Shown in pieces: positions 1 through 11,053 of a DNA stretch of 64,000 nucleotides. The translations under genes and the position numbers were made by a program. The stretch is from the IMG/VR virus record IMGVR_UViG_3300023218_000062; one strand, given 5' to 3'. The notes beneath the pieces were generated by a model. That model was not told the origin of the DNA and ran no database searches. It saw nothing but the letters and a program-made list of their open reading frames with translations. Numbering within the stretch: position 1 is the stretch's first letter; every line of letters begins with the position of its first letter. Source of the stretch: a virus. Taxonomy: Duplodnaviria > Caudoviricetes.

Positions 1-171
1 CTCTACTAAAAAATTTGCAGAGTCATACGCTGGGATTATTATTGAATATCCTTCATTTTTTTTAACATTTATTGTTTTGTTTTTTTGGAGTTTTTTTCTA
101 GCTCTGGCAAGAACTCGAGCGGAAGTAGTTGTCGCACCGCGTTTTTTCATTGTATCATAATATAAGTATAA

Positions 172-891
172 TTAATAGTGTATATATTTATGTTTTCCTT
201 TTAAGTTAAAATAATTATTAAAAGGTCTTCTACTACTAGTAGACGAAGCTATATTCGGCTTACATATTTTAATATTAATAAGTTCCGCTTGTTTCCATAT
301 ACTATAATTCAACGACATTTGATCTCTTTTACTAGGAAGACTCATATAATCATGATACCATTGAGAGAAAAAATTTAAACATTTTTCACTTTTTCTTGAT
401 ATTACTAAAACTCCACTTTCACATAATCCATTATTTATAGGATACCCATTAGCTTTTAATATATCTACATGCTTTTTTATGTTTTCAGGCTTGTCTTTTT
501 TGAGTTTTATTACTTCTTCTGCTTCTTTGTATACACAATCCCTATCAGGGTGTTGTCCTATCATCAAGTCAATTTTAAATGGATCGAATTTAAATTCGTC
601 TAAGAACATATTTAAGTTATTATACACTTCCATGTTCCCATCAATGAATATACATATGTCATATTCATTTGATATATATTTGTAGTATTGCATTACAATA
701 GAGTTAGCTCGTCTTTTTTGACATTCTATATGTTTATCCTGATTATCCATCAGAATTACTTTCCAATTCTTAGATGATGTATTTGGCGTATCTGTAATGC
801 ATATATAATCCCAATCCGGTGTAATTACTCTTGGTTCTATGAGTTTATCATAATTCCCTGTAATATAAGTTACTATACATTTCTTATACAT
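172..891 (-). CDS. DUF616/TOD1-MUCI70-like glycosyltransferase-domain protein
   Basis: Motifs VTYITGNYDKL, IFIDGN, HPDRDCVYKEA and RDQMSLNYSIW match my recollection of the DUF616 family. Confidence 0.75.
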   Translation of the reverse strand: MYKKCIVTYITGNYDKLIEPRVITPDWDYICITDTPNTSSKNWKVILMDNQDKHIECQKRRANSIVMQYYKYISNEYDICIFIDGNMEVYNNLNMFLDEFKFDPFKIDLMIGQHPDRDCVYKEAEEVIKLKKDKPENIKKHVDILKANGYPINNGLCESGVLVISRKSEKCLNFFSQWYHDYMSLPSKRDQMSLNYSIWKQAELINIKICKPNIASSTSSRRPFNNYFNLKGKHKYIHY

Positions 892-900
892 AGAAAGAGT

Positions 901-1101
901 TTATCCCCTCTCTGAAGGAAGGGGCCCTTGCTTTTTTAATAAAGAAGAATTTAACTGTTCTTCCATTTTTTCTATTTCTTCTAAAGATAAACCACAACAT
1001 GTAGCCGCACCTGTTTTTGATATAACTTCTATGAGTCCGCCGTTTTTAAGATGCTCTTTTATATCATCTTCCGTAACTGTATTGCAAACACATGTATACA
1101 T
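901..1101 (-). CDS. Bfd-like (2Fe-2S) ferredoxin domain protein
   Basis: MYTCVCNTVTE...TGAATCCGLS resembles Fer2_BFD (CxC...CxxC); the fourth canonical Cys appears to be Ser. Confidence 0.75.
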   Translation of the reverse strand: MYTCVCNTVTEDDIKEHLKNGGLIEVISKTGAATCCGLSLEEIEKMEEQLNSSLLKKQGPLPSERG

Positions 1102-1121
1102 GTTTATATTAAAAATTAAAT

Positions 1122-1212
1122 TGGAGGAAAGTGGAGGAATCGAACCCCTACCGGCTCCTCACCGATACCCCGGATTTCAAGTCCGGTTGCCAACCATTTA
1201 GCGGCACCTTCC
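1122..1212 (-). tRNA. tRNA-Ser(UGA), non-canonical 8/4 fold
   Basis: Anticodon arm CCGGA-CTTGAAA-TCCGG, long variable arm, T-loop TTCGATT, encoded CCA; 8-bp acceptor GGAAGGTG/CACTTTCC and 4-bp T-stem. Confidence 0.9.
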
Positions 1213-1221
1213 AATATGTAT

Positions 1222-1491
1222 TTAACCATCACGCCTATTCCATTTTGCAGCAACTTCTTCGATAGAATCACCATGTATTTCAGCATCACATCCCCCAGCT
1301 AACTCAGGACATCGTATAAGCCAACAAGGATTATCGGTATCGAATCTCTCATTAGCACCTACATATATTCTACCAACTTCTTCGTGTGAGCGCCAAAATG
1401 TTCCACTGGGATATATTGTATCTCCATCTCTCATATCTGGTACTTTACCACAAAACGGACATGATTTTAAGTTGATATCTTCTTTATTCAT
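1222..1491 (-). CDS. Lar-family restriction alleviation protein
   Basis: N-terminal LKSCPFCG, a second C-x7-C pair and C-terminal AAKWNRR. Confidence 0.7.
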   Translation of the reverse strand: MNKEDINLKSCPFCGKVPDMRDGDTIYPSGTFWRSHEEVGRIYVGANERFDTDNPCWLIRCPELAGGCDAEIHGDSIEEVAAKWNRRDG

Positions 1492-1540
1492 TTAATTTAC
1501 CTGTTGTTTATTTTCATATTCGAAAAATACTGCCCGTTGA

Positions 1541-1660
1541 ATGGTTGGCGTCTCCGTAAATAATTGCGCGCTCTAACTGCTTTAACCGCTCGTCACACCC
1601 ACAAGCTTCGGGTCTTGGCCACACCACTAGCCTCAAGGATTCAGGTTTAGCGCACTCTAC
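1541..1660 (-). ncRNA. candidate structured RNA of unknown class
   Basis: GC-rich intergenic island with closing stem GTGCGCT/AGCGCGC, internal stems GGCTA/TGGCC and ACCC/GGGT, ending ...GACGCCAACCA. Confidence 0.35.
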
Positions 1661-1932
1661 TACAATCCTTTTTTCGAAAAAACTGTATATCATTGCAAGT
1701 TTTATTTTTATAGTATTTCTTTTATTTTTAGTATTTCTTTTATTTTATTTAAACCATCTATCATAGATTCATTCTCAACCTCTTTTTTGATTTCATTTAT
1801 AATATTAGTATCTATATCTTCTCTAAATTTATCTGCTATTGACAAAATGGCATCTCCAAAAGACTCTTTCATTGAAATTTGCCTTTATCTAAATATATGA
1901 TATCACCTTAATATGTGAATGTCAATATTATT

Positions 1933-2009
1933 TGGGGTGTGGGACCGGGGTCGAACCGGCAACTGCTGGAGCCACAATCCAGTGCTTTACCTGTTAAGCT
2001 ACCCACACC
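1933..2009 (-). tRNA. tRNA-His(GUG)
   Basis: Anticodon arm CTGGA-TTGTGGC-TCCAG; G-1:C73 pair; encoded CCA. Confidence 0.95.
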
Positions 2010-2068
2010 ATCATTTATACGCTATAACGTATATTTTCATTTTATACGCTATAACGTATATTTAAAAC

Positions 2069-2144
2069 TGGCAGGTGTGCAAGGATTTGAACCCTGACCA
2101 AGAAATTTGGAGTTTCCTATGCTGCCATATTACACCACACACCT
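2069..2144 (-). tRNA. tRNA-Trp(CCA)
   Basis: Acceptor AGGTGTG/CACACCT, loop CTCCAAA, T-loop TTCAAAT, G73, CCA; D-stem has U11-A24. Confidence 0.95.
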
Positions 2145-2154
2145 ACAATTAATA

Positions 2155-2230
2155 TTCTTGGAAAGTTGAAAAGCTGTTTAGTTGAGTAACCGTCAATTGT
2201 CATAGAAGGATGCTTTTCTATGGCCAAGAA
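2155..2230 (-). ncRNA. structured RNA motif, copy A
   Basis: Terminal stem TTCTTGG/CCAAGAA, conserved GGCCATAG...AAGCATCCTTCTAT and inner pairing GAAAAGC/GCTTTTC; related to 3465-3559 and 2355-2510. Confidence 0.6.
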
Positions 2231-2239
2231 ATTTTAAAA

Positions 2240-2316
2240 TGGTTGCGAGGGCGGGACTTGAACCCGCACATAGAAGGTTATGAGCCTCTCAATCTACCAG
2301 TTGATATTACCTCGCG
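2240..2316 (-). tRNA. tRNA-Met(CAU), initiator-like C1:A72
   Basis: CGCGAGG/CCTCGCA acceptor with C1-A72 mismatch, loop CTCATAA, CCA; only two of the three initiator G-C pairs in the anticodon stem. Confidence 0.9.
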
Positions 2317-2354
2317 TCCGTATAACTATTTATCATTAAATTAAAAAACAGGTA

Positions 2355-2510
2355 ATTTAAACGGAATTTAAAAAGCTTTTTAAATTCCGTTGCTCTACCA
2401 ATTGAGCTACCAGCGAACCAAAATTCATTATTCATAAACTCTTTGGTTCGCTGGGCAGGACTCGAACCTGCAACCCACGGTTGGCATATTATTTTTTATG
2501 GCCGGTAATT
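2355..2510 (-). ncRNA. structured RNA motif, copy B, containing a circularly permuted tRNA domain (2387-2480)
   Basis: Minus-strand order: CCGT-GGGTT-GCAGG TTCGAGT CCTGC-CCAGCGA-A-CCA, a 27-nt spacer, then TCGCTGG-TA-GCTC AATTGGTA GAGC-A-ACGG; the flanks resemble motif copies A and C. Confidence 0.75.
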
Positions 2511-2512
2511 TT

Positions 2513-2520
2513 TATTTATC
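2513..2520 (-). promoter_or_regulatory. T4-like late promoter (GATAAATA) immediately upstream of RNA copy B
   Basis: Same ATAAATA core found 10-45 bp upstream of most structural genes in the window. Confidence 0.45.
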
Positions 2521-2629
2521 TTATCTTATTATGATTCTTTCATGTTGTCAAGTATTTTCTGTTTCTTTCTTGGTAAAATATTTCTTTATTATTGGATTCT
2601 TATCAACAATGTCTTCCATATGAAGCTTC

Positions 2630-2869
2630 CTATTTTGTGATATGTTTTACTGCTCACATCACTGCTTCTTCAATTTTGGTTTTAGCTAGTGATAATTCTC
2701 TAGAGCTACCAACCATATTAATAAGATTATGGAACTCTAAACCGGCATCTTTAATACCCTTCATGAGTTGTTTTTCTTCATCAGAAAGAACTCTGTATTC
2801 ATGACGCATAATATTATTAGTGGTTCTTTCATCTTGCGTAGAATCAATTATTTCATTATCTTTAAACAT
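2630..2869 (-). pseudogene. Acb2/Tad1-family nucleotide-sponge-like gene with in-frame UGA at the conserved Trp
   Basis: SD GAGGA and ATG at 2869; ...RELSLAKTKIEEAVM-[TGA 2654-2656]-AVKHITK-TAG; family motif EEAxMW recalled from Tad1 and T4 Vs.4/Acb2. Confidence 0.7.
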
Positions 2870-2895
2870 TATCTTATCCTCTTGGTTGTAAATGT

Positions 2896-2983
2896 TGGCG
2901 GAAGGGGAGGGGGTCGAACCCTCACCGCTATTACTAACGGGACACCTTTCCAAGGTGCTTGATACACCAGTTTCCGCCCTTCC
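2896..2983 (-). tRNA. tRNA-Ser(GGA)
   Basis: Anticodon arm GCACC-TTGGAAA-GGTGT, long variable arm, G73, CCA; compact D-arm with TGGT loop. Confidence 0.9.
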
Positions 2984-3187
2984 TTTATTAACTCATTCAA
3001 TATCAGCATTTGTAATATTTTTTAATTCCGGTACAGCATATTCACATTCATCTTTTAATGCTACTATTGTAGCAGCATCGATGTTGTCTTGGCATAGTCT
3101 ACAGTGAATGGCAGCGATACTTGCTTTCAATTTTTTATTTTCTTTAACAGAATCTGACATGTTTATTCCTATAGAGAATTTATATGT

Positions 3188-3216
3188 ATAATATAATATT
3201 TACGTTGGTTTGTCAA
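3188..3216 (-). promoter_or_regulatory. sigma70-type promoter
   Basis: TTGACA-17 bp-TATTAT. Confidence 0.55.
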
Positions 3217-3222
3217 GTTATT

Positions 3223-3295
3223 TGGCGCTCCGAGTAGGACTCAAACCTACAAGGCGGGACTTAGGAGGTTCTGCTGCGCTTCTGTCGCCCGGAGC
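3223..3295 (-). tRNA. degenerate tRNA-Arg(CCU), probable pseudo-tRNA
   Basis: Acceptor GCTCCGG/TCGGAGC and CCA intact, loop CTCCTAA; two mismatches in the anticodon stem, T-loop TTTGAGT, poor D-arm. Confidence 0.6.
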
Positions 3296-3464
3296 CAAAA
3301 TTTTTATTAAAGGTAAGTTTATTGATAGTGACACGGCTACTAATAGTTTTATTGTATACTTTCAGTAGAGGTTTCCTATATAGTTACTTTTTCCTTTCGC
3401 CATTTCATCCTATGTTCTTACACTAACACTTGAAAAAGAGTTAGTCAAGCGTTTTTAAATAATA

Positions 3465-3559
3465 TGACCGGGAATTTGGAAAGCTTTAAGGGCCGATTGA
3501 TAATCGGCTTCTTCAGCAGCTAATAGCTAATAGAAGGATGCTTATCCTATGGCCGGTCA
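3465..3559 (-). ncRNA. structured RNA motif, copy C
   Basis: Terminal stem TGACCGG/CCGGTCA, GGCCATAGGATAAGCATCCTTCTAT, insert hairpin GCCGATT/AATCGGC and GCTTTCC partner. Confidence 0.6.
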
Positions 3560-3577
3560 GTTTTTTTACTTTTAAAT

Positions 3578-3654
3578 TGGTGGGTCTGGAGAATTTCGAA
3601 TCCACGACCCTCTGCTTGCAAGGCAGATGCTCTCCCGGACTGAGCTATACCCCC
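3578..3654 (-). tRNA. chimeric/degenerate tRNA-Ala(UGC)
   Basis: Good D and anticodon arms (TCTGC-CTTGCAA-GCAGA), but the acceptor GGGGGTA/CAGACCC has 3 mismatches and no G3:U70. Confidence 0.65.
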
Positions 3655-4076
3655 GAAAATTTTATAAACCACACTAATACAAAAATTATCGTATAGTGTG
3701 TTAAGTGATGAACAGCCTGATCAAATCCTAATGCCATCCAAAATCTTCTATCTTCTATCGTAAAACGCCCCAACATATGTGGTGACGCTTTTATTCTATC
3801 CATTGTAAAATGAATTATTGTATCAAACCAAAACAATATTAATATTAGCCCTAATCCTTTAAATGAAAGAACCCCACTTAATTGTAATACCAACACTGAT
3901 ATAACTATTGTAAAAAATCCATGATCGCTTGCATGCTTTAACAACGGTACAAACCATCCAATTTCGTTGAATTTATCCATTCCATCTTTTCTATATGATT
4001 GAACCACATAGTCAACTATAAAATGCTTAAACTGAAAAATTAATAGTAGAACAAATATTAATATTATTGTATTCAT
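3645..4076 (-). CDS. DUF3307-family membrane protein
   Basis: KHFIVDYVVQ, LLKHASDHG, IIHFTMDRIK and LGFDQAVHH motifs; hydrophobic segments. Confidence 0.75.
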   Translation of the reverse strand: MNTIILIFVLLLIFQFKHFIVDYVVQSYRKDGMDKFNEIGWFVPLLKHASDHGFFTIVISVLVLQLSGVLSFKGLGLILILFWFDTIIHFTMDRIKASPHMLGRFTIEDRRFWMALGFDQAVHHLTHYTIIFVLVWFIKFSGV

Positions 4077-4381
4077 AACACCTCCTTACTTTTTCTGATG
4101 GACTTCTTCATGGTAACATTTTCATATTTCATTATAGTTTGAGATTCTTCAATAACATGAACCTGTTTGCTTATACCAAAAACCTCTGACATATCGACAA
4201 TAGATGTTGTATCCCACATCGTAATATTATCAATATTATCAATATTATCAATAGTACTTGTATCCCACATCGTAATATTATCAATATTATCAATATTATC
4301 AATATTATCAATATTATCAATATTATCAATAGTACTTATGTCAAATACAGGTTCTTCTACTATTTCGTCAGACTTATTCAT
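4073..4381 (-). CDS. small protein with IDN tandem repeat and DUF285-like WDTS..DMS.VF remnant
   Basis: ORF track; repeats visible in protein and DNA. Confidence 0.5.
   Translation of the reverse strand: MNKSDEIVEEPVFDISTIDNIDNIDNIDNIDNIDNITMWDTSTIDNIDNIDNITMWDTTSIVDMSEVFGISKQVHVIEESQTIMKYENVTMKKSIRKSKEVL
4205..4338. repeat. nested VNTR: 9-bp (ATATTATCA)n inside a duplicated larger unit
   Basis: Two copies of TATCCCACATCGTAAT-(ATTATCAAT)n-AGTACTT with different numbers of 9-mers. Confidence 0.9.
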
Positions 4382-4726
4382 TTTTTATTTTTAAATCACA
4401 TCTTTATAGGCTGGCAGAGGAACTAGTTTACCATTTTCGATAGTAAATTTCAAGTCTATATATTCTCCGTCTTCATCTGAAGGACCAGTGCGATATGCTC
4501 TGTCACTGAACGCAGTATATACAATATTATCGCCTTCTCTATCCTTTCCTCTCACTATAAATACGGGTGGGATAGAATGATTGGTAATAGTGACACCAAT
4601 TTTTAATTCTTGTGGTAGACCATGTTGTATATCATACTTCTAATTTTCTGTTAAGATTTTTGCGTCAACTTCATTTTATAACCCTCGTAACTCTATTAAC
4701 TTTCTCAGAGTATTTATCCCAATATG

Positions 4727-5065
4727 TTATTTGTTTTTTTTCCATGGTGGAGTAGTCTCCTTAATCGTAATAGTTATCCCGCTCCAACATCCACAACCCA
4801 AAAATTGATCTATATCGACTTCAGATATTTCATAGTATGTGTCTTCATCATCTTCATTGTGAATGCGAATTGTAGCTGGAACTTGATGTGACATCATATA
4901 TCCCTCTTCATTCCCTTCACGAGTACTACCAATTTCTTTATCTACGTGTTCTAAATATTCTATAAATGTTCTAAGTGTTGGGTGTTTTTGTATCATCATA
5001 TCAACTCCTGAATAGTAATTTGTTGACGCCTTTTTAATTTCCTTATTTCTTAAAATCTCGTCCAT
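4727..5065 (-). CDS. hypothetical protein
   Basis: ORF track; start uncertain because the frame stays open upstream. Confidence 0.45.
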   Translation of the reverse strand: MDEILRNKEIKKASTNYYSGVDMMIQKHPTLRTFIEYLEHVDKEIGSTREGNEEGYMMSHQVPATIRIHNEDDEDTYYEISEVDIDQFLGCGCWSGITITIKETTPPWKKNK

Positions 5066-5108
5066 TATGGAGGGTATCTCTATTATTGCTAATCTAGCGA
5101 CATTAATT

Positions 5109-5181
5109 TGGTTTGTACGACTGGATTTGAGCCAGTGACCCGTCCGAGGCGGGGGACTCTTCCAGACTGAGTTACGTACAG
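5109..5181 (-). tRNA. pseudo-tRNA (Pro/Arg-like, variable region deleted)
   Basis: Acceptor CTGTACG/CGTACAA, D-arm ACTC/GAGT, T-loop CTCAAAT, loop CCTCGGA, 1-nt variable region, CCA. Confidence 0.55.
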
Positions 5182-5188
5182 TTTAATT

Positions 5189-5263
5189 TGGTACCCCCGG
5201 AGAGATTCGAACTCCCACGCTTATGGTTCGTAGCCATATGCTCTTCCATTGAGCTACGGGGGT
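5189..5263 (-). tRNA. tRNA-Arg(ACG)
   Basis: Canonical cloverleaf, TATGG-CTACGAA-CCATA, CCA. Confidence 0.95.
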
Positions 5264-5270
5264 AAATTTC

Positions 5271-5693
5271 TTAATATATTTTTCTCTTTTCTTTTCCACC
5301 ATATAACCCTTTTACACGTTTAGTATCTCTGAGGTATGCGTTGCAATATTTAATTATCATGCGTGCATGTTCTTCATCTACCATGCAACTATTCCAATGA
5401 CCTCTTCGATAATCAACCCCAAATACATATTTAATAGCAACCCATATTCTTTTAAAAAAACCTAGATATGGGGACAATTGCAAATTAAATGTAAGTTCTG
5501 GCAATGGTAGAAATTTATCAGGATCATCCATGTCTTCTTTAGTAAAGAGTGCTATACCGTCATCATAATATGACACCATCATTGCATGTTCTGGATTATA
5601 ACATTCACAAGGTACATAAAAACTTTCAAAAAAATCTCGTGGGGTAGTATACAGTTTAACATTGTCTACATTTTCATTCTTTTCACCATTCAT
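5271..5693 (-). CDS. hypothetical phage protein
   Basis: ORF track; FFKRIWVAIKYVFG...GHWNS motif resembles small phage hypotheticals. Confidence 0.65.
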   Translation of the reverse strand: MNGEKNENVDNVKLYTTPRDFFESFYVPCECYNPEHAMMVSYYDDGIALFTKEDMDDPDKFLPLPELTFNLQLSPYLGFFKRIWVAIKYVFGVDYRRGHWNSCMVDEEHARMIIKYCNAYLRDTKRVKGLYGGKEKRKIY

Positions 5694-5699
5694 AATCGT

Positions 5700-5996
5700 T
5701 TATATTTTTATTTTGGCATTGAGTTCTTTATTTATATTTAATATGTGAGATAATACTCCAGAATTATATGCTGAAATTCTATTTTCACCATGTTTACTAC
5801 AACGGTAAACGCTTCCACTAAATCCATAAAATAATAAGTCATCTCCATCTTTCTCTATTTTAGAAATGCCGCTGTTCACTCTCCAACTATCATTCCCTAG
5901 AAATCCACCAGACCAGCTACTAAATATAAAATATTCTGTCCCCTTCTTAGATGGTACTTATATTATAACCCAACCATCTGGTATATGCTCATTCAT
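5700..5996 (-). pseudogene. conserved-looking phage hypothetical interrupted by TAA at codon 13
   Basis: MNEHIPDGWVII*VPSKK...SWSGGFLGNDSWRVNSGISKIEKDG...GFSGSVYRC; a 99-codon frame with one internal stop at 5958-5960. Confidence 0.7.
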
Positions 5997-5998
5997 TT

Positions 5999-6199
5999 TT
6001 ATTTTTCATCTCTATTGGCGGCGGTAAGTCCTATAATATAACCAATAACAATTGGCCCCCCAAATGATAATAACATCCCCCATTGGGGTATATCAACTCC
6101 TATTCCGACTGCGAATAATATTATTGATAATATTAGACCTATTATGGCCCCTCCAGCTATTCCTGCTACAATTAAAAATCCTGAAAAAAGTGGTTTCAT
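5999..6199 (-). CDS. small two-TM membrane protein
   Basis: ORF track; two hydrophobic helices. Confidence 0.6.
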   Translation of the reverse strand: MKPLFSGFLIVAGIAGGAIIGLILSIILFAVGIGVDIPQWGMLLSFGGPIVIGYIIGLTAANRDEK

Positions 6200-6463
6200 A
6201 ATTTTATCCTTTTCCGTATCCTTAGTTTGTAACCAAGCTCTTTTTTATTGAGCTATGGGGGTATGATTTTTATCCTAAAATTCTTCGTGGAATTCCATAG
6301 GCTTTCGCTATAGCTTTATTAAACTTTTCGATTAAATCGGTATAGTCTTTAGAACCTCTAGTATCATTTATTGTTCTAATATATTTATATTTCATTATCA
6401 TATCTTTATTTGATTCAGAACGATAGCGTCAACGCCATTTGCTCTTCGCCCCTGTCGTTAAAT

Positions 6464-6538
6464 TAGTGGGAACTTCAGGTTTCGCGCCTGCCCCCTGAGG
6501 CTTCAACTCAGCGCTTCCACTAGGTTAGCGTAGTTCCC
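6464..6538 (-). tRNA. tRNA-Phe(GAA), atypical
   Basis: Acceptor GGGAACT/AGTTCCC, CTGAG-TTGAAGC-CTCAG; T-loop CGCGAAA; 3' end ACTA instead of ACCA. Confidence 0.7.
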
Positions 6539-6602
6539 CCATTATTTATTATTTATTATTTTTCATAATAGGCGTTTTTCCACAAGTTTGTATCTAGTTT
6601 TT

Positions 6603-7073
6603 TCATTTTGAAGATTTCAGTAGTTCTTCCACATCATTTATTAGTCTTTTATAATCTTTAAGTTCTACCATAAGAGAATAGATGATGAGTCGTGCAATAT
6701 CATTATCTAATTCTTCACTTAATCTTTCACCTTCATTTAGAAGGAAAGAATGGTCAAAGAAATTATATCCTTTAGCTACATATTCATCAAATAACTCTCC
6801 TATACTTTTTTCAGTTTTTATATTTTCTCCATCCTGTATTTTAGTTAAAGGTATAGAAATTAATTGGGTTGGAACGAATTCTTGTGGGAACATGGTGTTC
6901 TCGTTTTTAGGCCATCCTGTCAACAAAATACTTTCAATTGTGCCATTATTACTTCTAATTATTCGAAGGCTCAAATTATCAAAATTTTTTGAATTATATT
7001 CATTATTAAATAATTTTACTAAATCTTCTATGAATTCTGTCGTAGCTGTAATTTTATATTTCATGAGTGTCAA
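6603..7073 (-). CDS. hypothetical protein
   Basis: ORF track; co-directional with neighbours, AAGGA upstream. Confidence 0.6.
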   Translation of the reverse strand: MTLMKYKITATTEFIEDLVKLFNNEYNSKNFDNLSLRIIRSNNGTIESILLTGWPKNENTMFPQEFVPTQLISIPLTKIQDGENIKTEKSIGELFDEYVAKGYNFFDHSFLLNEGERLSEELDNDIARLIIYSLMVELKDYKRLINDVEELLKSSK

Positions 7074-7142
7074 TCCTTATTTTTATGTTTTGCGGACAAA
7101 TATATCATGTTAGGTATATAATGTCAAACTTCATAATATTCT

Positions 7143-7343
7143 TTATTTGTATAATAATATATAAACAAAAAATGGCAAAAACATTATTGCTCCAATCACC
7201 TGAAAAATTGTTGCAATTGTATATACATTTGTATCGTTGACTCTTAGAATGTATTTTAATAATTGAAAATCTATACCCGGAATCCATACCATGATATATC
7301 CAATTAACATTACGAAAAGCATTATTCCGTCTATCGTATTCAT
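7143..7343 (-). CDS. small membrane protein
   Basis: ORF track; hydrophobic. Confidence 0.5.
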   Translation of the reverse strand: MNTIDGIMLFVMLIGYIMVWIPGIDFQLLKYILRVNDTNVYTIATIFQVIGAIMFLPFFVYILLYK

Positions 7344-7463
7344 TTTTATATCAAATCCTATATATTCAATTCTATAGGTTTGGATTTAGATATTTGTCTT
7401 CCTGTATATCTCCATTTGTAGTGTATAGTTAAAAACTCTATTATATCATTTTCTTTAATTTAT

Positions 7464-7539
7464 TGGCGGTACAGACCGGGTACGATCCGGCATCATCTTC
7501 CGTGACAGGGAAGTATTTTACCAATTAAACTACTGCACC
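7464..7539 (-). tRNA. tRNA-Asp(GUC)
   Basis: CTTCC-CTGTCAC-GGAAG, G73, CCA; T-loop ATCGTAC. Confidence 0.95.
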
Positions 7540-7620
7540 GTACTTATTCCTTCTCTTGTCACACCAACTTCATATATTATTAGTATAATATTCATTTAAA
7601 TGTTCTTTAGCCCATTTTAA

Positions 7621-7692
7621 TTGTGGAGCTACGGGGTAACGATCCCCGCCATCGTGATTGCAAATCACAAGTCTGTCCCATACAGCAGCCCC
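7621..7692 (-). tRNA. tRNA-Ala(UGC), non-canonical D-arm
   Basis: Acceptor GGGGCTG/TAGCTCC with G3:U70 and A73; TGTGA-TTTGCAA-TCACG; T-loop ATCGTTA; 3' ACAA. Confidence 0.75.
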
Positions 7693-7749
7693 ATTACTAT
7701 ATGACAATAATACCTCAACAGTTCAATATTGCCAAGGTGTTTTTAAAAA

Positions 7750-7780
7750 TGGTGTCACTGACACGATTCGAACGCGCATC
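7750..7780 (-). pseudogene. orphan tRNA 3' fragment (T-arm plus acceptor strand)
   Basis: GCGCG-TTCGAAT-CGTGT-CAGTGAC-A-CCA with no matching 5' strand found nearby. Confidence 0.5.
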
Positions 7781-7911
7781 CCGAATATCGTCACCATCCC
7801 ATCTTACATCGTATTTTTCATTCTACAAGAAGAATTCCATCCACGATTCCGCCCATTTATTTTTTATAGTGCTGATGGGGTCTCGTTCCCTCTTGCACTG
7901 TTCTTAAGCAT

Positions 7912-7941
7912 AAAAAAGGCAGCTAAAAAAGCTGTCTTTTT
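7912..7941. terminator. bidirectional intrinsic terminator
   Basis: A-run, GGCAGCT/AGCTGTC hairpin, T-run. Confidence 0.7.
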
Positions 7942-8458
7942 GTCTTTTTATTTTGTAGAATATCTTTTACATTCTACTCCAACCTTCAGACAAAAAGGCA
8001 CTATTAGGCGCTTTCGCATCAAAAAAGCGTTAATTAATATCTCTATAACCTTCGGACGTAATTTCTCTTACGCCTTCACTAATTTTAGTTTTTCATTAAA
8101 TAAAGTCATTTTTATTTCTTTTTTATCCTTGTTATATTTATTTATGTTCATTTTCATTAAATCTGTGTGGGTTTACTTATTTATGATAACACCCGGTTTT
8201 ATAATAGAACCAATTGGTCCATCACCTGTTGGATCTATACTAATCATCCTAACCAGCCCTCTCGGGAGATACCGCCCCATCCTTCATTAGTGGCTCCAAG
8301 ACCTGATCCGTGTTCAATTCCAGCCACGCCGGTGTCATCATTAATGAACTTATGCCCGTCAATAATTATATCTGTACTCATAATTTATCTCCTTTAGTTT
8401 CTTATATCCTATCACGTTTATTTATGGTTGTCAATACTTTTTTACAACTTTTTGAATT

Positions 8459-8534
8459 TGGAGCGGCCAATCGGGCACGATCCGATAACCTGATGCTTGG
8501 AAGGCATCTGCTCTACCAATTGAGCTATAGCCGC
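8459..8534 (-). tRNA. tRNA-Gly(UCC)
   Basis: GATGC-CTTCCAA-GCATC, U73, CCA; T-loop ATCGTGC. Confidence 0.95.
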
Positions 8535-8558
8535 ATTTAAATTTAAATCTATTTATAT

Positions 8559-8587
8559 ACTCTACAATGTTTAAATTGTTTTGTCAA
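8559..8587 (-). promoter_or_regulatory. sigma70-type promoter for the tRNA cluster
   Basis: TTGACA-17 bp-TAGAGT; near-identical copy at 9199-9227. Confidence 0.65.
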
Positions 8588-8595
8588 GTTAATAT

Positions 8596-9192
8596 TCAAT
8601 CGTTAAAGAAAATTGGCCAAGAATTGCCGTCTTCATTTAAACTAGGAAGTGTTCTATCAAACATTTCTAATGTATTATTTGGAGAACCTTCTATTAGTAC
8701 TCTCCAATCGGTTTGTTGAATATTGCTAATTTTATCATTTTTATTTTCATATTCTACCTTTTCACCTGTTTTAATATTTAACCATTGTAACTTAAACCGC
8801 TCTGATTTATTTAACTCATCATACAATGTTTTACCATCTTGAGTTAATGCACCATAATCAATAATGGATGATCCTAGTTTAGTCTTTACAAAAAATAATA
8901 ACCTTTTAACTAGAGATTTTTTTCTATGCTCTGGCAATGTATATGCTACCAATAATATATGGTTGTTATTTTTAACAGTTGTTTGTATAAAAGATAGTAC
9001 TTTAGGTTCCTTGTCCGCAGATAAAAAATAAAATGTAGTGTTTTTGTAAATCGATTTAAACACATAATAACTATCTAAATCTGCTATATATTCATTATTA
9101 TTTTCTAAATGTTTGATGGTATGTGTTATATCTGGAAAATGATTTAACATTAAAGTCATTTCCTTTAAGGATACAAGATCGTTTAGTTTCAT
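8596..9192 (-). CDS. hypothetical protein, possible GNAT-like fold
   Basis: AYTLPEHRKKSLVKRLL and LTQDGKTLY segments loosely resemble an acetyl-CoA-binding motif. Confidence 0.45.
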   Translation of the reverse strand: MKLNDLVSLKEMTLMLNHFPDITHTIKHLENNNEYIADLDSYYVFKSIYKNTTFYFLSADKEPKVLSFIQTTVKNNNHILLVAYTLPEHRKKSLVKRLLFFVKTKLGSSIIDYGALTQDGKTLYDELNKSERFKLQWLNIKTGEKVEYENKNDKISNIQQTDWRVLIEGSPNNTLEMFDRTLPSLNEDGNSWPIFFND

Positions 9193-9198
9193 TATTAT

Positions 9199-9227
9199 AT
9201 CCTACAATGTTTAACTTGTTTTGTCAA
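9199..9227 (-). promoter_or_regulatory. sigma70-type promoter
   Basis: TTGACA-17 bp-TAGGAT. Confidence 0.65.
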
Positions 9228-9805
9228 GTTTTATTCATATGGGGAAAATTAGAATAATTAAGTTCAGGAAAGCTAGAATGTAAAAAGTTTAATAATTTAG
9301 ATGGTTTATCATCGTTTATATGATAGCATAAAAAATTATTTTTATCATTAAAAAATTTAAGTATATTATAATGGTGAGAAAACCATTCCATCTTCCAATA
9401 ATGTTTAACTTCATCATATGTTTCAAAATTTAATACTTTTCGATATCTTTCCATTAAATCGGAATGATTGACTCTGCTGGGTATCCAATCCTCTACATGT
9501 CTGGTATTTAATATATAATAAGAATCTGGATACCATTTATAAATGTAATCAAAATGTTTATACGGTTCAATAATTTCTTTTTCTGAAACAAATATCATGT
9601 CAGAAAATGCTATGATATTACTATAATTCTTGAATGGTTTTTCATTTAATTTTTTATTTTCAATGAAGAATTTGGCTATATTTCCACAATCCCAATGTAC
9701 CGACGATATGTCATTCTTTAGAAAGAATTCGTGAAAACTTGTGGTTCCACATTTGTTAAATCCGACTAAAAATATTTTACGATTTTTGGAATCTTTAACC
9801 AACAT
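9224..9805 (-). CDS. sulfotransferase (P-loop type)
   Basis: KIFLVGFNKCGTTSFHEFF PAPS-binding loop and YYILNTR; start moved to the ATG at 9805. Confidence 0.8.
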   Translation of the reverse strand: MLVKDSKNRKIFLVGFNKCGTTSFHEFFLKNDISSVHWDCGNIAKFFIENKKLNEKPFKNYSNIIAFSDMIFVSEKEIIEPYKHFDYIYKWYPDSYYILNTRHVEDWIPSRVNHSDLMERYRKVLNFETYDEVKHYWKMEWFSHHYNILKFFNDKNNFLCYHINDDKPSKLLNFLHSSFPELNYSNFPHMNKT

Positions 9806-10070
9806 ATTCTGCAAATTTTTCTGCAGACGACTTTGCATCATCTAAATTTTTAATGGTTTTTGTACCATGTTTATTATATGGTGTACTATCGCTACCGTAT
9901 TCAGGATCAAATATTTTATCACCTATTTTAAAACCTGCGACTGCACGATGACTCCATCCATACCATATTCCCTTATCTTCGTCAAGACCAGTAGGTCCTT
10001 TTCCTCTTTTAGTAATATTATATTTTTTTACAATGTCTTTAGTAGACTCAAATAGTTGTTGTAATTTCAT
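9795..10070 (-). CDS. hypothetical protein, possible virion internal protein
   Basis: Begins MKLQQLFE; WYGWSHRA motif. Confidence 0.6.
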   Translation of the reverse strand: MKLQQLFESTKDIVKKYNITKRGKGPTGLDEDKGIWYGWSHRAVAGFKIGDKIFDPEYGSDSTPYNKHGTKTIKNLDDAKSSAEKFAEYVG

Positions 10071-10099
10071 ATTAATCTGCTTCCCATTCACCAAATGAA

Positions 10100-11053
10100 T
10101 TAAACGTTGCCAATCAATGGTGCTTTTCCATCATCGATAATGGTCCATCCTAAATCATTAATTAAATAATTTCTAGCATCTTCAACATTGTCGAATTGCC
10201 CGGATATATTAGAAAATGTTTCTGTGGAATATAAAATACCTTCCGCATTTAACGTTTTACCTGTTACAACACCACCACGATCATATATATTATTTGCCCA
10301 TCCAAGTAGTGTTCTCGCGTAATTTTCGGGCGACATTGCCGACTGAAAGAACATAGTATTAAGAATAGCATTTGGGTTTAATTCCCAATTTTCTAAAGAA
10401 AAATTAAAATCTGACGATTCAAACATTCCTGAAAGAATTATTACTGTTGAAACATCCCATTCAGAGACTGATTTCATGGCCGACTCTTGCCAATTAGTTG
10501 TATTTGAAAACATTTCCTCTGCCGATATGGGCATATTTGGGGGGAGCGCCTCAAAATCCTCAATGTTTAAAAGGCTTCTTCCCTTGAATACATCAGTTGC
10601 AAATACAAACTCAGAATACATTAATTCCCCAAATTTAAACGAAGTAATACGTTCAGAAAGACTATCTGATAATATTTTAACAAAAGATAGTATATTATCC
10701 GACGAAATTTTTATTATGTATTGGCCGGATTCATTATAACTATGGTTTCTAGATACGGCATTACCTGACAAAATTTCAACGTTCCCATCCCCCCAGTCAA
10801 TCTCAAATTCAGTATTACCACCAAATCCCATAATAAGACCGCCGATTTCCAAATCATTAGTTAGTGTTGTATCAATATGTATGGACATTGGAATTAGTTC
10901 TTCATGAAACTCACTTTCATTCCCTCGTATTCTGGAAGGTCTTAAATTATCATGAAAGTAGATAAAATTTTCAGAATCACCGACTGCATCTATAAAAGTT
11001 ATAACAGGTCTATTAGAGTCATTAGGATTATTGGGGCTATATACAATAGTCAC
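10100..11053 (-). CDS. PKD-like plus DUF285/BspA-like repeat protein
   Basis: IDWGDG...HSY...GQYIIKI and WDVSTV..SGMF..S.FN..LENW repeats; TATAAATA upstream at 11079-11086. Confidence 0.75.
   Translation of the reverse strand: MTIVYSPNNPNDSNRPVITFIDAVGDSENFIYFHDNLRPSRIRGNESEFHEELIPMSIHIDTTLTNDLEIGGLIMGFGGNTEFEIDWGDGNVEILSGNAVSRNHSYNESGQYIIKISSDNILSFVKILSDSLSERITSFKFGELMYSEFVFATDVFKGRSLLNIEDFEALPPNMPISAEEMFSNTTNWQESAMKSVSEWDVSTVIILSGMFESSDFNFSLENWELNPNAILNTMFFQSAMSPENYARTLLGWANNIYDRGGVVTGKTLNAEGILYSTETFSNISGQFDNVEDARNYLINDLGWTIIDDGKAPLIGNV

What the first reader, a model, noticed from the sequence alone, without database searches (positions are those of the whole stretch)
2351..2511. Circularly permuted tRNA domain (T-arm, closed acceptor, D-arm) with no anticodon loop
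Seen: the 3' half (CCGT, variable GGGTT, canonical T-arm, acceptor strand CCAGCGA-A-CCA; 2480-2444) precedes the 5' half (TCGCTGG, canonical D-arm, ACGG; 2416-2387). A 27-nt spacer pairs with ACCAAA and extends the acceptor stem. The anticodon stem ACGG/CCGT opens into the scaffold shared with copies A and C. Both arms are undecayed while several neighbouring tRNAs are eroded, the element has its own GATAAATA box, and it is flanked by 8-bp direct repeats GGTAATTT (2351-2358, 2504-2511). Established: bacterial YrlA Y RNAs have this arm order, and two-piece tmRNA genes have similar CCA-pairing spacers. Inference: RNase P and 3' trimming could yield a two-piece CCA-ended tRNA mimic acting as a decoy, adaptor or anti-defence RNA.
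Basis: partly seen in the sequence, partly recalled or inferred. Interest (0 to 1): 0.9.

Follow-up and report, generated by a model that had tools for sequence, protein, structure and literature searches.

The report
Phage tRNA-mimic on Y-RNA-like scaffold
This is a real back-to-front tRNA look-alike of the known YrlA (bacterial Y RNA) type, carried by a giant phage on a small-RNA scaffold that always sits beside one Ro60-like/TerD protein gene; the kind is known, but this branch, its built-in CCA end and this copy's missing signature motif are new details.

Summary
Window 2356-2510 (minus strand) is a circularly permuted tRNA-like module: variable loop, T-arm, closed 7-bp acceptor stem, D-arm, 4-bp anticodon stem, no anticodon loop. 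Published work describes YrlA Y RNAs in just these terms.

- **Scores.** Rfam YrlA gives 50.4 bits (E 4e-9, below its cut-off of 69). A covariance model I built from 22 relatives without this sequence gives 80.6 bits (E 3e-17).
- **Family.** The relatives lie beside, and on the same strand as, homologues of a 691-aa protein encoded about 9.3 kb away. Its C-terminus has a TerD fold and its N-terminus is weakly Ro60-like. All carry a covarying two-stem "handle" and an invariant UCCUUCU(A) motif. Rfam does not hold this handle.
- **CCA.** N-CCA after the acceptor strand recurs in 8 of 40 distinct modules. *M. smegmatis* YrlA is cut by RNase P and gains CCA in vivo, so the two-piece idea has a precedent but is untested here.
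- **This copy.** It lacks the invariant motif through a 12-nt deletion that a co-occurring strain does not have. A 30-nt palindrome out-competes its handle fold.

No RNA data exist. This scan noted the same protein-RNA family on other DNA before. Verdict: a new variant of a known kind.

The parts
2523..2551 (-). Sigma-70-like promoter: TTGACA 2551-2546, 17-nt spacer, TAAGAT 2528-2523
   Evidence: Consensus scan, 10 of 12 matches. A consensus match only; no transcript data.
2513..2520 (-). GATAAATA box, resembling a T4-type late promoter TATAAATA
   Evidence: Read from the sequence. Function not tested.
2356..2510 (-). Whole RNA as delimited by the family covariance model R1: handle plus permuted tRNA-like module (copy B)
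   Evidence: R1, built from 22 relatives without this sequence: 80.6 bits, E 3e-17, model positions 1-142 of 142. Rfam YrlA RF02553: 50.4 bits, E 4e-9, at 2365-2499.
2481..2510 (-). 5' strand of the handle: stem 1 (CCGG region), internal loop CCAUA, weakened stem 2. The family's invariant UCCUUCU(A) motif is missing here.
   Evidence: The R1 alignment shows a 12-position deletion and mismatches in stems 1 and 2. A co-occurring strain has 12 extra nt after + strand 2492, which reads GGCAUCCUUCUA in the RNA.
2472..2480 (-). Anticodon-stem strand CCGU (tRNA positions 40-43) and variable loop GGGUU (44-48)
   Evidence: Sequence. The matching helix covaries in relatives: 85.5% of cells paired, all 5 pairs with changes on both sides.
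2455..2471 (-). T-arm: GCAGG, UUCGAGU, CCUGC
   Evidence: In relatives 100% of cells are paired, with compensatory changes.
2444..2454 (-). Acceptor 3' strand CCAGCGA, then encoded discriminator A2447 and CCA 2446-2444
   Evidence: Sequence. N-CCA at this position occurs in 8 of 40 distinct family modules.
2417..2443 (-). 27-nt spacer closing the acceptor stem. UUUGGU pairs with ACCAAA; an 8-bp hairpin has loop GAAUA.
   Evidence: Fold. A strain variant in run X4 adds two U next to 2420, which can pair with the bulged A2443 and A2442, and changes loop base 2432. Both changes keep the helix.
2387..2416 (-). Acceptor 5' strand UCGCUGG (2416-2410), U8 A9, D-arm (2407-2392), A26, anticodon-stem strand ACGG (2390-2387)
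   Evidence: Acceptor and D helices covary in relatives.
2361..2390 (-). Perfect 30-nt palindrome. It contains ACGG and the 3' strands of stem 2 and stem 1, and forms a 13-14-bp hairpin that competes with the anticodon stem and the handle.
   Evidence: Sequence. The minimum-energy fold with the hairpin is -57.4 kcal/mol, against -40.1 when the handle and anticodon stem are forced. In 10 of 10 relatives the minimum-energy fold forms the handle.
2354..2364 (-). 11-nt stretch absent from a co-occurring strain. It looks like a duplicated 3' end of the handle (AAAUUCCGUUU then AAAUUACC) and creates the downstream GGTAATTT repeat.
   Evidence: Laid contigs.
2153..2232 (-). Paralogue A: handle with AUCCUUCUA but no tRNA-like module
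   Evidence: R1 44.5 bits, E 2e-8; fold.
3463..3561 (-). Paralogue C: handle with AUCCUUCUA but no tRNA-like module
   Evidence: R1 35.8 bits, E 3e-6; fold z = -4.2.

Best explanation
The element is the tRNA-mimic (YrlA-class) member of a family of small Y-RNA-like RNAs encoded by this jumbo myophage.

**Shown**
- The family has a two-stem handle with internal loop C(C/U)AUA opposite AA(C/A)UU, and normally a single-stranded (A/U)UCCUUCU(A) motif.
- In about 40 relatives the handle carries a permuted tRNA module: variable loop, T-arm, closed acceptor stem, D-arm, short anticodon stem.
- These RNAs lie next to, and on the same strand as, the gene of one conserved protein of about 690 aa. That protein has a helical N-terminal domain whose best structural match is Ro60, and a TerD C-terminal domain.
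- In this phage the gene lies about 9.3 kb from copy B. Handle copy D lies directly in front of the gene, and copies A and C lie among the tRNA genes.

**Inferred, by analogy with Ro60-Y RNA particles**
- The handle docks on the protein.
- The tRNA-shaped module recruits or occupies a tRNA-binding factor, such as a processing, repair or degradation enzyme, as part of phage control of tRNA or RNA integrity.

**Inferred for the acceptor arm**
- The stem is 7 bp and is followed by an encoded A-CCA.
- As in *M. smegmatis* YrlA, RNase P could cut before U2416 and 3' trimming could stop at CCA2444. That would leave a two-piece, CCA-ended mimic.
- The 19-21-bp extension could first be opened by RNase III.

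**This allele**
The copy in the window is an unusual allele. A 12-nt deletion removes the invariant motif, and a 30-nt palindrome out-competes the handle. It probably binds the protein poorly. It then acts either as a free tRNA-like RNA or is on its way to being lost.
For: - **Identity.** Rfam YrlA matches full length at 50.4 bits, E 4e-9. R1, built without the window, gives 80.6 bits, E 3e-17.
- **Structure in 22 relatives.** 88% of cells pair against 40-44% with slid partners. The covariation score is 0.69 against about 0.13. No shuffle of 500 reaches the observed values.
- **Link to the protein gene.** All 163 R1 hits in 83 loci fetched around homologues are on the gene's strand. Most listed hits lie just upstream or within about 4 kb downstream of the gene. 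The protein family has over 2000 homologues.
- **Protein fold.** The TerD domain scores Z 12.7. With the N-terminal domain alone, the best of 48,161 chains is Thermus phage Ro60 (Z 8.0, 233 residues aligned). *D. radiodurans* Rsr scores Z 7.2 over 262 residues. These are the only hits covering most of the domain.
- **CCA.** N-CCA occurs in 8 of 40 distinct modules. On the first set it was 7 of 25, binomial tail 4e-7, uncorrected for shared ancestry. The acceptor stems of those members all differ.
- **Precedent.** RNase P cleavage and a CCA end in *M. smegmatis* YrlA (PMC4201824).
- **Spacer.** The spacer variant in run X4 keeps the helix.
- **RNA repair context.** An RNA ligase gene (PF09414) lies directly downstream of the orthologous RNA in L034 and about 1.3 kb downstream in L033.
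Against: - No transcript, end-mapping or binding data exist; no RNA run holds the stretch.
- The Rfam score is below the gathering cut-off. The YrlA motif GNCGAAN0-1G is absent.
- No Pfam TROVE domain was found in P0001 or in the 20 largest window ORFs.
- Ro60 likeness is only Z 7-8, a range common for helical repeats, and Foldseek finds nothing significant.
- The window allele lacks the invariant motif. Its handle fold is 17 kcal/mol worse than the fold with the palindrome.
- A-CCA is base-paired to the 5' leader, which is unfavourable for RNase P.
- Acceptor stems vary freely and lack G3-U70, so no aminoacylation identity is visible.
- No RNA ligase homologue was found in the window or L022.
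Confidence: 0.7

Rival explanations
1. Copy B in this strain is a decaying, non-functional paralogue. The phage keeps three intact handle RNAs (A, C, D). B lost the invariant motif and its handle fold and persists only as a relic.
For: - A 12-nt deletion removes GGCAUCCUUCUA, a motif whose core UCCUUC is invariant in 22 of 22 aligned relatives and present in A, C and D.
- A co-occurring strain still has it.
- The handle fold is disfavoured by 17 kcal/mol, while 10 of 10 relatives fold into the handle.
- R1 gives 80.6 bits, near the bottom of the 74-130 range of full-length members.
Against: - The T-arm, D-arm, all tertiary-pair positions and the 7-bp acceptor stem have no mismatch.
- A promoter-like site is intact.
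- The deletion allele is the only one detected in the contigs of two of four samples and the commoner one in a third.
- Natural variation in the spacer preserves the helix.
Confidence: 0.22
2. It is a free-standing tRNA decoy or anti-defence RNA that works without the TerD/Ro60-like protein, for example by occupying a host factor that recognises the tRNA elbow or the acceptor-CCA end.
For: - In this allele the tRNA-like part folds on its own while the handle does not.
- It has its own promoter-like site.
- It lies directly downstream of an Acb2/Tad1-hairpin anti-defence gene, an arrangement also seen in L033.
Against: - In every relative the module is embedded in the handle beside the protein gene.
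- Without an anticodon loop it cannot decoy anticodon nucleases.
- No target is known.
Confidence: 0.1
3. It is the gene of a two-piece (circularly permuted) tmRNA.
For: - The order T-arm, acceptor 3' strand, CCA, intervening segment, acceptor 5' strand matches. There is a local 27-bit hit to beta_tmRNA over exactly that part.
- A related jumbo-phage contig does carry a permuted tmRNA (L026, RF04321, 81.7 bits).
Against: - ARAGORN finds no tmRNA, and RF04321 has no hit at this site.
- Position 3-70 is G-C, not G-U.
- Only about 70 nt follow the D-arm before the next tRNA gene, with no tag frame or pseudoknots.
- The flanks match the handle family instead.
Confidence: 0.01
4. It is a circularly permuted tRNA gene that matures into an ordinary tRNA through a circular intermediate, as in the red alga *Cyanidioschyzon merolae*; or it is a chance or misassembled junction of two tRNA fragments.
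For: The arm order is the same. Wang et al. 2018 raise this possibility for some YrlAs.
Against: - No anticodon loop could form: the 4-bp stem runs into a conserved handle, not a bulge-helix-bulge splice site.
- According to Wang et al. 2018, no bacterial equivalent of the splicing endonuclease has been reported.
- About 40 relatives keep the same permuted, anticodon-less form with covariation.
- Separate assemblies span the junction.
Confidence: 0.02

Closest known systems
YrlA Y RNAs (Rfam RF02553; Chen et al. 2014, PMC4201824; Wang et al. 2018, 10.1101/312249), especially M. smegmatis YrlA
   Same: - A permuted tRNA-like module (variable loop, T-arm, closed acceptor stem, D-arm, anticodon stem without a loop) on a stem formed by the RNA's two ends.
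- All tRNA tertiary-pair positions are present.
- It is found in phages, among tRNA genes.
- It has paralogues that lack the tRNA module, as YrlB does.
- Like *M. smegmatis* YrlA, it has a 7-bp acceptor stem. That RNA is cut by RNase P and ends in CCA.
   Different: - The score is below Rfam's cut-off (50.4 against 69; relatives 38-42, core only).
- There is no GNCGAAN0-1G motif. The handle has its own conserved loop and the UCCUUCU(A) motif.
- The neighbouring protein has a TerD domain where Ro60 has vWA, and no Pfam TROVE hit.
- CCA is encoded rather than added, and here it is buried in a helix extended by a 27-nt spacer.
Two-piece (permuted) tmRNA genes (Rfam RF04321, RF01849, RF01850)
   Same: The gene order is T-arm, acceptor 3' strand, CCA, excised spacer, acceptor 5' strand. 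The spacer pairs around the CCA.
   Different: There is no G3-U70, no tag reading frame and no pseudoknots. A full D-arm and variable loop are present. ARAGORN and RF04321 are negative at this site.
Circularly permuted tRNA genes of Cyanidioschyzon merolae (Soma et al. 2007, as cited in 10.1101/312249)
   Same: The 3' half comes before the 5' half, and the acceptor stem is closed by a loop in the precursor.
   Different: Those mature into real tRNAs with anticodons. Here no anticodon loop exists in any of about 40 relatives.
TerD-like protein with partner small RNA, noted earlier in this scan on other DNA (e1-4591429, e1-5350679, e1-5376583). The protein is related to NCBIfam NF041916, the MXAN_6230/SCO0854 RING-domain family.
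   Same: The same protein family (NF041916 partial hit, 356 bits, below its 600 cut-off). The same handle RNA with GGC(C/U)AU and UCCUUCUA beside the gene.
   Different: Those notes concern the handle RNAs and the protein. This finding is the tRNA-module-bearing member, here in an allele without the motif. I found no paper in the held library that describes the pairing.

Membership tests
YrlA (Rfam RF02553; Chen et al. 2014) | tRNA-like domain in the order variable loop, T-arm, closed acceptor-like stem, D-arm, anticodon-like stem | tested here: met
   Full-length Rfam alignment, my own module parser and the sequence.
YrlA (Rfam RF02553; Chen et al. 2014) | Score at or above Rfam's gathering cut-off (69 bits) | tested here: not met
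   50.4 bits, E 4e-9. Four relatives score 38-42 bits, three of them over the tRNA-like core only and one (L157) full length.
YrlA (Rfam RF02553; Chen et al. 2014) | GNCGAAN0-1G motif near the 5' end, the proposed Ro60 contact | tested here: not met
   The 5' strand reads CCGGCCAUAAAAA. The family consensus is GGC(C/U)AU.
YrlA (Rfam RF02553; Chen et al. 2014) | Within 4 kb of a Ro60 (TROVE) gene and on the same strand | tested here: not met
   No Pfam TROVE hit in P0001 or in the 20 largest window ORFs. The candidate partner P0001 is on the same strand but about 9.3 kb away. Its Ro60 likeness is only structural, Z 7-8. The rest of the genome could not be searched.
YrlA (Rfam RF02553; Chen et al. 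2014) | Bound by Rsr/Ro60; modified by TruB and DusA | not testable with these tools
   Needs immunoprecipitation and modification mapping.
   80.6 bits, E 3e-17, positions 1-142 of 142.
   12 positions are deleted in the window allele. A co-occurring strain has them.
   The window fold with the handle is -40.1 kcal/mol against a minimum of -57.4. In 10 of 10 relatives the minimum-energy fold forms the handle.
   The strand is the same, but the distance is about 9.3 kb. Most R1 hits in the relatives' loci lie within about 4 kb. Copy D lies directly upstream of the gene.
Two-piece tmRNA | G3-U70 alanine identity, tag reading frame, pseudoknots | tested here: not met
   Position 3-70 is G-C. ARAGORN finds no tmRNA. 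RF04321 has no hit at this site.
Ro60 / TROVE proteins (for partner P0001) | HEAT-repeat ring of the TROVE type | tested here: inconclusive
   VIA-align on the N-terminal model: best hit is 9l5y_B (phage Ro60), Z 8.0, rmsd 3.9, 233 residues aligned; 2nvo_A gives Z 7.2 over 262 residues. On the full model, three Ro60 chains align over 305-318 residues at Z 6.7-7.2. Foldseek is not significant and Pfam TROVE is absent.

The most novel reading that the evidence does not exclude
In a subset of this RNA family, those with a 7-bp acceptor stem, an encoded N-CCA and a loop of 7 nt or more, the closing loop is excised. The phage would then make a two-piece, CCA-ended, anticodon-less tRNA mimic. Such an RNA could be a substrate or decoy for enzymes that act on tRNA 3' ends, such as the CCA-adding enzyme, acceptor-end-modifying toxins or an aminoacyl-tRNA synthetase. 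It could also carry that end to the Ro60-like/TerD protein. The motif-less allele in this window would be a version released from the protein.
Probability: 0.12. Interest if true: 0.8.

Novelty: new variant of a known kind. Interest (0 to 1): 0.5.

Why it matters
Y RNAs with tRNA-like modules are known, but what the tRNA mimic is for is still open.

This locus belongs to a large branch, mostly from big phages, in which the mimic sits on a different handle and beside a different protein: TerD in place of vWA, with over 2000 homologues. I found no description of this branch in Rfam or in the held literature.

The recurrent encoded CCA, together with the 7-bp acceptor stems, makes a concrete prediction. 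RNase P and 3' trimming should open the acceptor stem, as in *M. smegmatis* YrlA. This can be tested in vitro with a transcript of about 160 nt.

The natural pair of alleles, with and without the invariant motif, offers a ready-made test of what the motif and the handle do.

Tried and rejected
- **Whole genome.** None is held for this window, so Ro60, RtcB or ligase genes elsewhere in the phage could not be excluded or found.
- **Phage records.** Megablast found nothing, and blastn found only tRNA pieces.
- **The window's contig.** It is not in viral contigs.
- **Pattern AUCCUUCUA...GGTTCRA in viral contigs.** Almost only chance hits; one true member, L043.
- **Two metagenome scans for the motif-bearing allele.** They failed. 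The first found nothing. The second found only an unrelated tRNA-like sequence that shares 25 nt. The full sequence of that allele is therefore unknown; I know only the differences listed by read laying.
- **The closest relative** (L031, protein 85% identical). Its contig ends before the tRNA region.
- **Sequence searches of P0001.** Searches against PDB and Pfam gave nothing useful.
- **RNA ligase.** tblastn with the L033 and L034 ligases found no homologue in the window or L022.
- **RNA runs.** None were found.
- **Rejected readings.** tmRNA, a permuted true tRNA gene, a dimeric-tRNA artefact, and target-site duplication by the 8-bp repeats.

Full report
**What the window is**

The window is 33% G+C and encodes a family B DNA polymerase, a tail sheath and a baseplate wedge. 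The polymerase is 43-45% identical to those of the Xanthomonas jumbo phages Xoo-sp13 and XacN1. The window is therefore part of a large myophage. It is identical to a JGI metagenome contig of 82.7 kb. Locus L022 is the reverse complement of window 1-10891 plus 9.8 kb beyond the window's start. Window 1-9000 is a tRNA region on the minus strand.

**Checking the observation**

On the minus strand the order is:

- CCGU, variable loop GGGUU, a canonical T-arm;
- acceptor 3' strand CCAGCGA, then A and CCA;
- a 27-nt spacer;
- acceptor 5' strand UCGCUGG, then UA;
- a canonical D-arm, A, and ACGG.

The acceptor strands pair 7 of 7. ACCAAA pairs with UUUGGU, and the rest of the spacer forms an 8-bp hairpin. 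The stretch folds far better than shuffles do (z = -6.2). By standard tRNA numbering the nucleotides for the elbow and core tertiary contacts are all present.

ARAGORN calls no tRNA or tmRNA here. A TTGACA-17-TAAGAT promoter-like site and the GATAAATA box lie just upstream. The GGTAATTT repeats exist, but the 8-mer is no more frequent than chance.

**What it is**

With relaxed thresholds, Rfam's YrlA model matches 2365-2499 over its full length at 50.4 bits, E 4e-9. That is below the family's cut-off of 69. The tRNA-like core aligns well; the outer stems do not.

Wang et al. [quoted passage not shown] Chen et al. (PMC4201824) found them in 254 bacteria and 22 phages.

**The family and its protein**

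I fetched it (L022:17863-19938, P0001). It has over 2000 homologues, which sources name "TerD family protein" where they name it at all. It has no Pfam hit at E below 0.01, and a partial NCBIfam NF041916 hit.

I fetched 79 viral loci around homologues. Many carry, next to the gene and on its strand, RNAs with the same architecture:

- stem 1;
- internal loop C(C/U)AUA opposite AA(C/A)UU;
- stem 2;
- (A/U)UCCUUCU(A), whose core UCCUUC is invariant in all 22 aligned relatives;
- often a permuted tRNA module.

In an alignment of 22 non-redundant members, a six-helix structure has 88% of cells paired, against 40-44% when the partners are slid. Its covariation score is 0.69 against about 0.13. No shuffle of 500 reaches the observed values.

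I built covariance model R1 from these 22 sequences, without any window sequence. Its scores are:

| Copy | Position | R1 bits | Match |
|---|---|---|---|
| B (this finding) | window 2356-2510 | 80.6 (E 3e-17) | full length |
| A | window 2153-2232 | 44.5 | handle only |
| D | L022:17698-17777, directly upstream of the protein gene | 40.2 | handle only |
| C | window 3463-3561 | 35.8 | handle only |

Across 83 loci all 163 R1 hits lie on the gene's strand, and most listed hits lie within about 4 kb of the gene. Rfam's YrlA model sees the relatives only at 38-42 bits, mostly through the tRNA core. No Rfam family matches the handle. This is a YrlA-like branch with its own handle.

**Is the protein Ro60-like?**

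The full model (pLDDT 85) has a clear TerD fold at residues 458-631 (Z 12.7). Three Ro60 structures are the only hits that align over 305-318 residues across both domains (Z 6.7-7.2).

With the N-terminal 450 residues folded alone, the best of 48,161 chains is Thermus phage phiLo Ro60 (Z 8.0, 233 residues aligned). *D. radiodurans* Rsr follows at Z 7.2 over 262 residues. All other hits cover only about 100 residues of helical repeat.

Foldseek finds nothing significant, and Z 7-8 is a common value for helical repeats. I call the Ro60 likeness plausible, not shown.

**The CCA and the two-piece idea**

Among 25 distinct closing loops from the first set, 7 begin with N-CCA (binomial tail 4e-7, uncorrected for shared ancestry). 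In the wider set from the model search it is 8 of 40, and 6 of the 19 loops of 7 nt or more. The acceptor stems of these members all differ in sequence. Several short loops begin ACA or ACC.

The module therefore probably descends from a tRNA gene with an encoded CCA, and in part of the family the CCA is kept.

Chen et al. showed that *M. smegmatis* YrlA is cut by RNase P in vitro and in vivo and carries CCA, with both halves remaining on Rsr. It was the only one of the three YrlAs they studied that has a 7-bp acceptor stem.

Two points count against easy processing here. The A-CCA is paired with the 5' leader in a helix of 19-21 bp. No relative has such an extension; their loops are 3-17 nt.

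**Natural variation**

Logan contigs of four runs from one study were laid on window 1900-3700. Separate assemblies span the permuted junction.

- A co-occurring strain is a minority in run X3 and about half of X4. It has 12 extra nt after + strand 2492, reading GGCAUCCUUCUA in the RNA. This is exactly the motif that R1 reports as deleted. The same strain lacks 11 nt at 2354-2364.
- In run X4 the spacer has two extra U next to 2420 and a change at loop base 2432. The two U can pair with the bulged A2443 and A2442, which would make the helix continuous.

The window's copy is therefore a deletion allele of a motif-bearing RNA, and the extended acceptor helix is maintained.

**Fold of this allele**

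The 3' part contains a perfect 30-nt palindrome (2361-2390). It sequesters ACGG and the 3' strands of both handle stems. The minimum-energy fold uses it (-57.4 kcal/mol). Forcing the anticodon stem and the handle gives -40.1 kcal/mol. In 10 of 10 relatives the minimum-energy fold closes the handle. The tRNA-like arms form in both folds. This allele probably presents a free tRNA-like body with a poor handle.

**Context**

- An Acb2/Tad1-hairpin gene lies directly upstream of B, and its homologue lies upstream of the orthologous RNA in L033.
- An RNA ligase gene (PF09414) follows the orthologous RNA directly in L034 and at about 1.3 kb in L033. None was found in the window or L022.
- No RNA sequencing run holds the stretch.

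**Verdict**

The element is a YrlA-class tRNA mimic on a Y-RNA-like handle that goes with a TerD/Ro60-like protein. The kind is known; the branch, the encoded CCA and the motif-less allele are new details. Function and processing remain inferred. This scan has noted the same protein-RNA family on other DNA before.

Noticed in passing
window 2654-2869 (-); L033:1061-1489: A 71-aa Acb2/Tad1 hairpin-domain protein (Pfam PF24729, 54 bits), a family of phage anti-CBASS/anti-Thoeris sponges, lies directly upstream of copy B. A homologue 64% identical over 77 residues lies just upstream of the orthologous tRNA-mimic RNA in L033.
   Followed up: partly
L026:2124-2349 (+): A related jumbo-phage contig (293 kb) carries a permuted (two-piece) tmRNA gene: Rfam RF04321, 81.7 bits, above its cut-off. 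It lies in the tRNA region about 8 kb upstream of that contig's TerD-like protein gene.
   Followed up: no
L034:7375-8028; L033:3281-3934: An RNA ligase gene (Pfam PF09414) follows the tRNA-mimic handle RNA directly in L034 and at about 1.3 kb in L033. This echoes the link between Ro60/Y RNA and RNA repair. tblastn found no homologue in the window or L022.
   Followed up: partly
window 2203-2211 and 3531-3539 (-); L022:17719-17727; all relatives: The handle RNAs carry a single-stranded (A/U)UCCUUCU(A) motif, whose core UCCUUC is invariant in all 22 aligned relatives. It is complementary to a purine-rich, Shine-Dalgarno-like UAGAAGGA. Its role is unknown.
   Followed up: no
window 2243-2316 (-) and 3581-3654 (-): Two tRNA-like genes score only 42-43 bits with Rfam's tRNA model, have stem mismatches and are not called by ARAGORN.
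   Followed up: no
L226:738-762; L227:1356-1380: Two metagenome contigs share an exact 25-nt stretch (T-loop, T-stem, acceptor 3' strand, ACCA) with the window's module. It lies in a tRNA-like sequence of about 118 nt that starts with the same acceptor 5' strand. ARAGORN does not call it.
   Followed up: partly
window 2361-2390: Logan contigs of runs X1 and X2 break at the 30-nt palindrome, with pieces ending at 2389 and starting at 2362. Continuity across it rests on the JGI contig and on a variant contig in X3.
   Followed up: partly
window 4200-4330 (-), inside ORF 4073-4381: A run of tandem 9-nt repeats (ATTATCAAT on the + strand) lies inside a small ORF.
   Followed up: no
L022:14346-14415 (+), outside the window: R1 hits a further tRNA-core-like stretch (25.7 bits, model positions 47-107 only) between the window's start and the TerD-like gene.
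   Followed up: no
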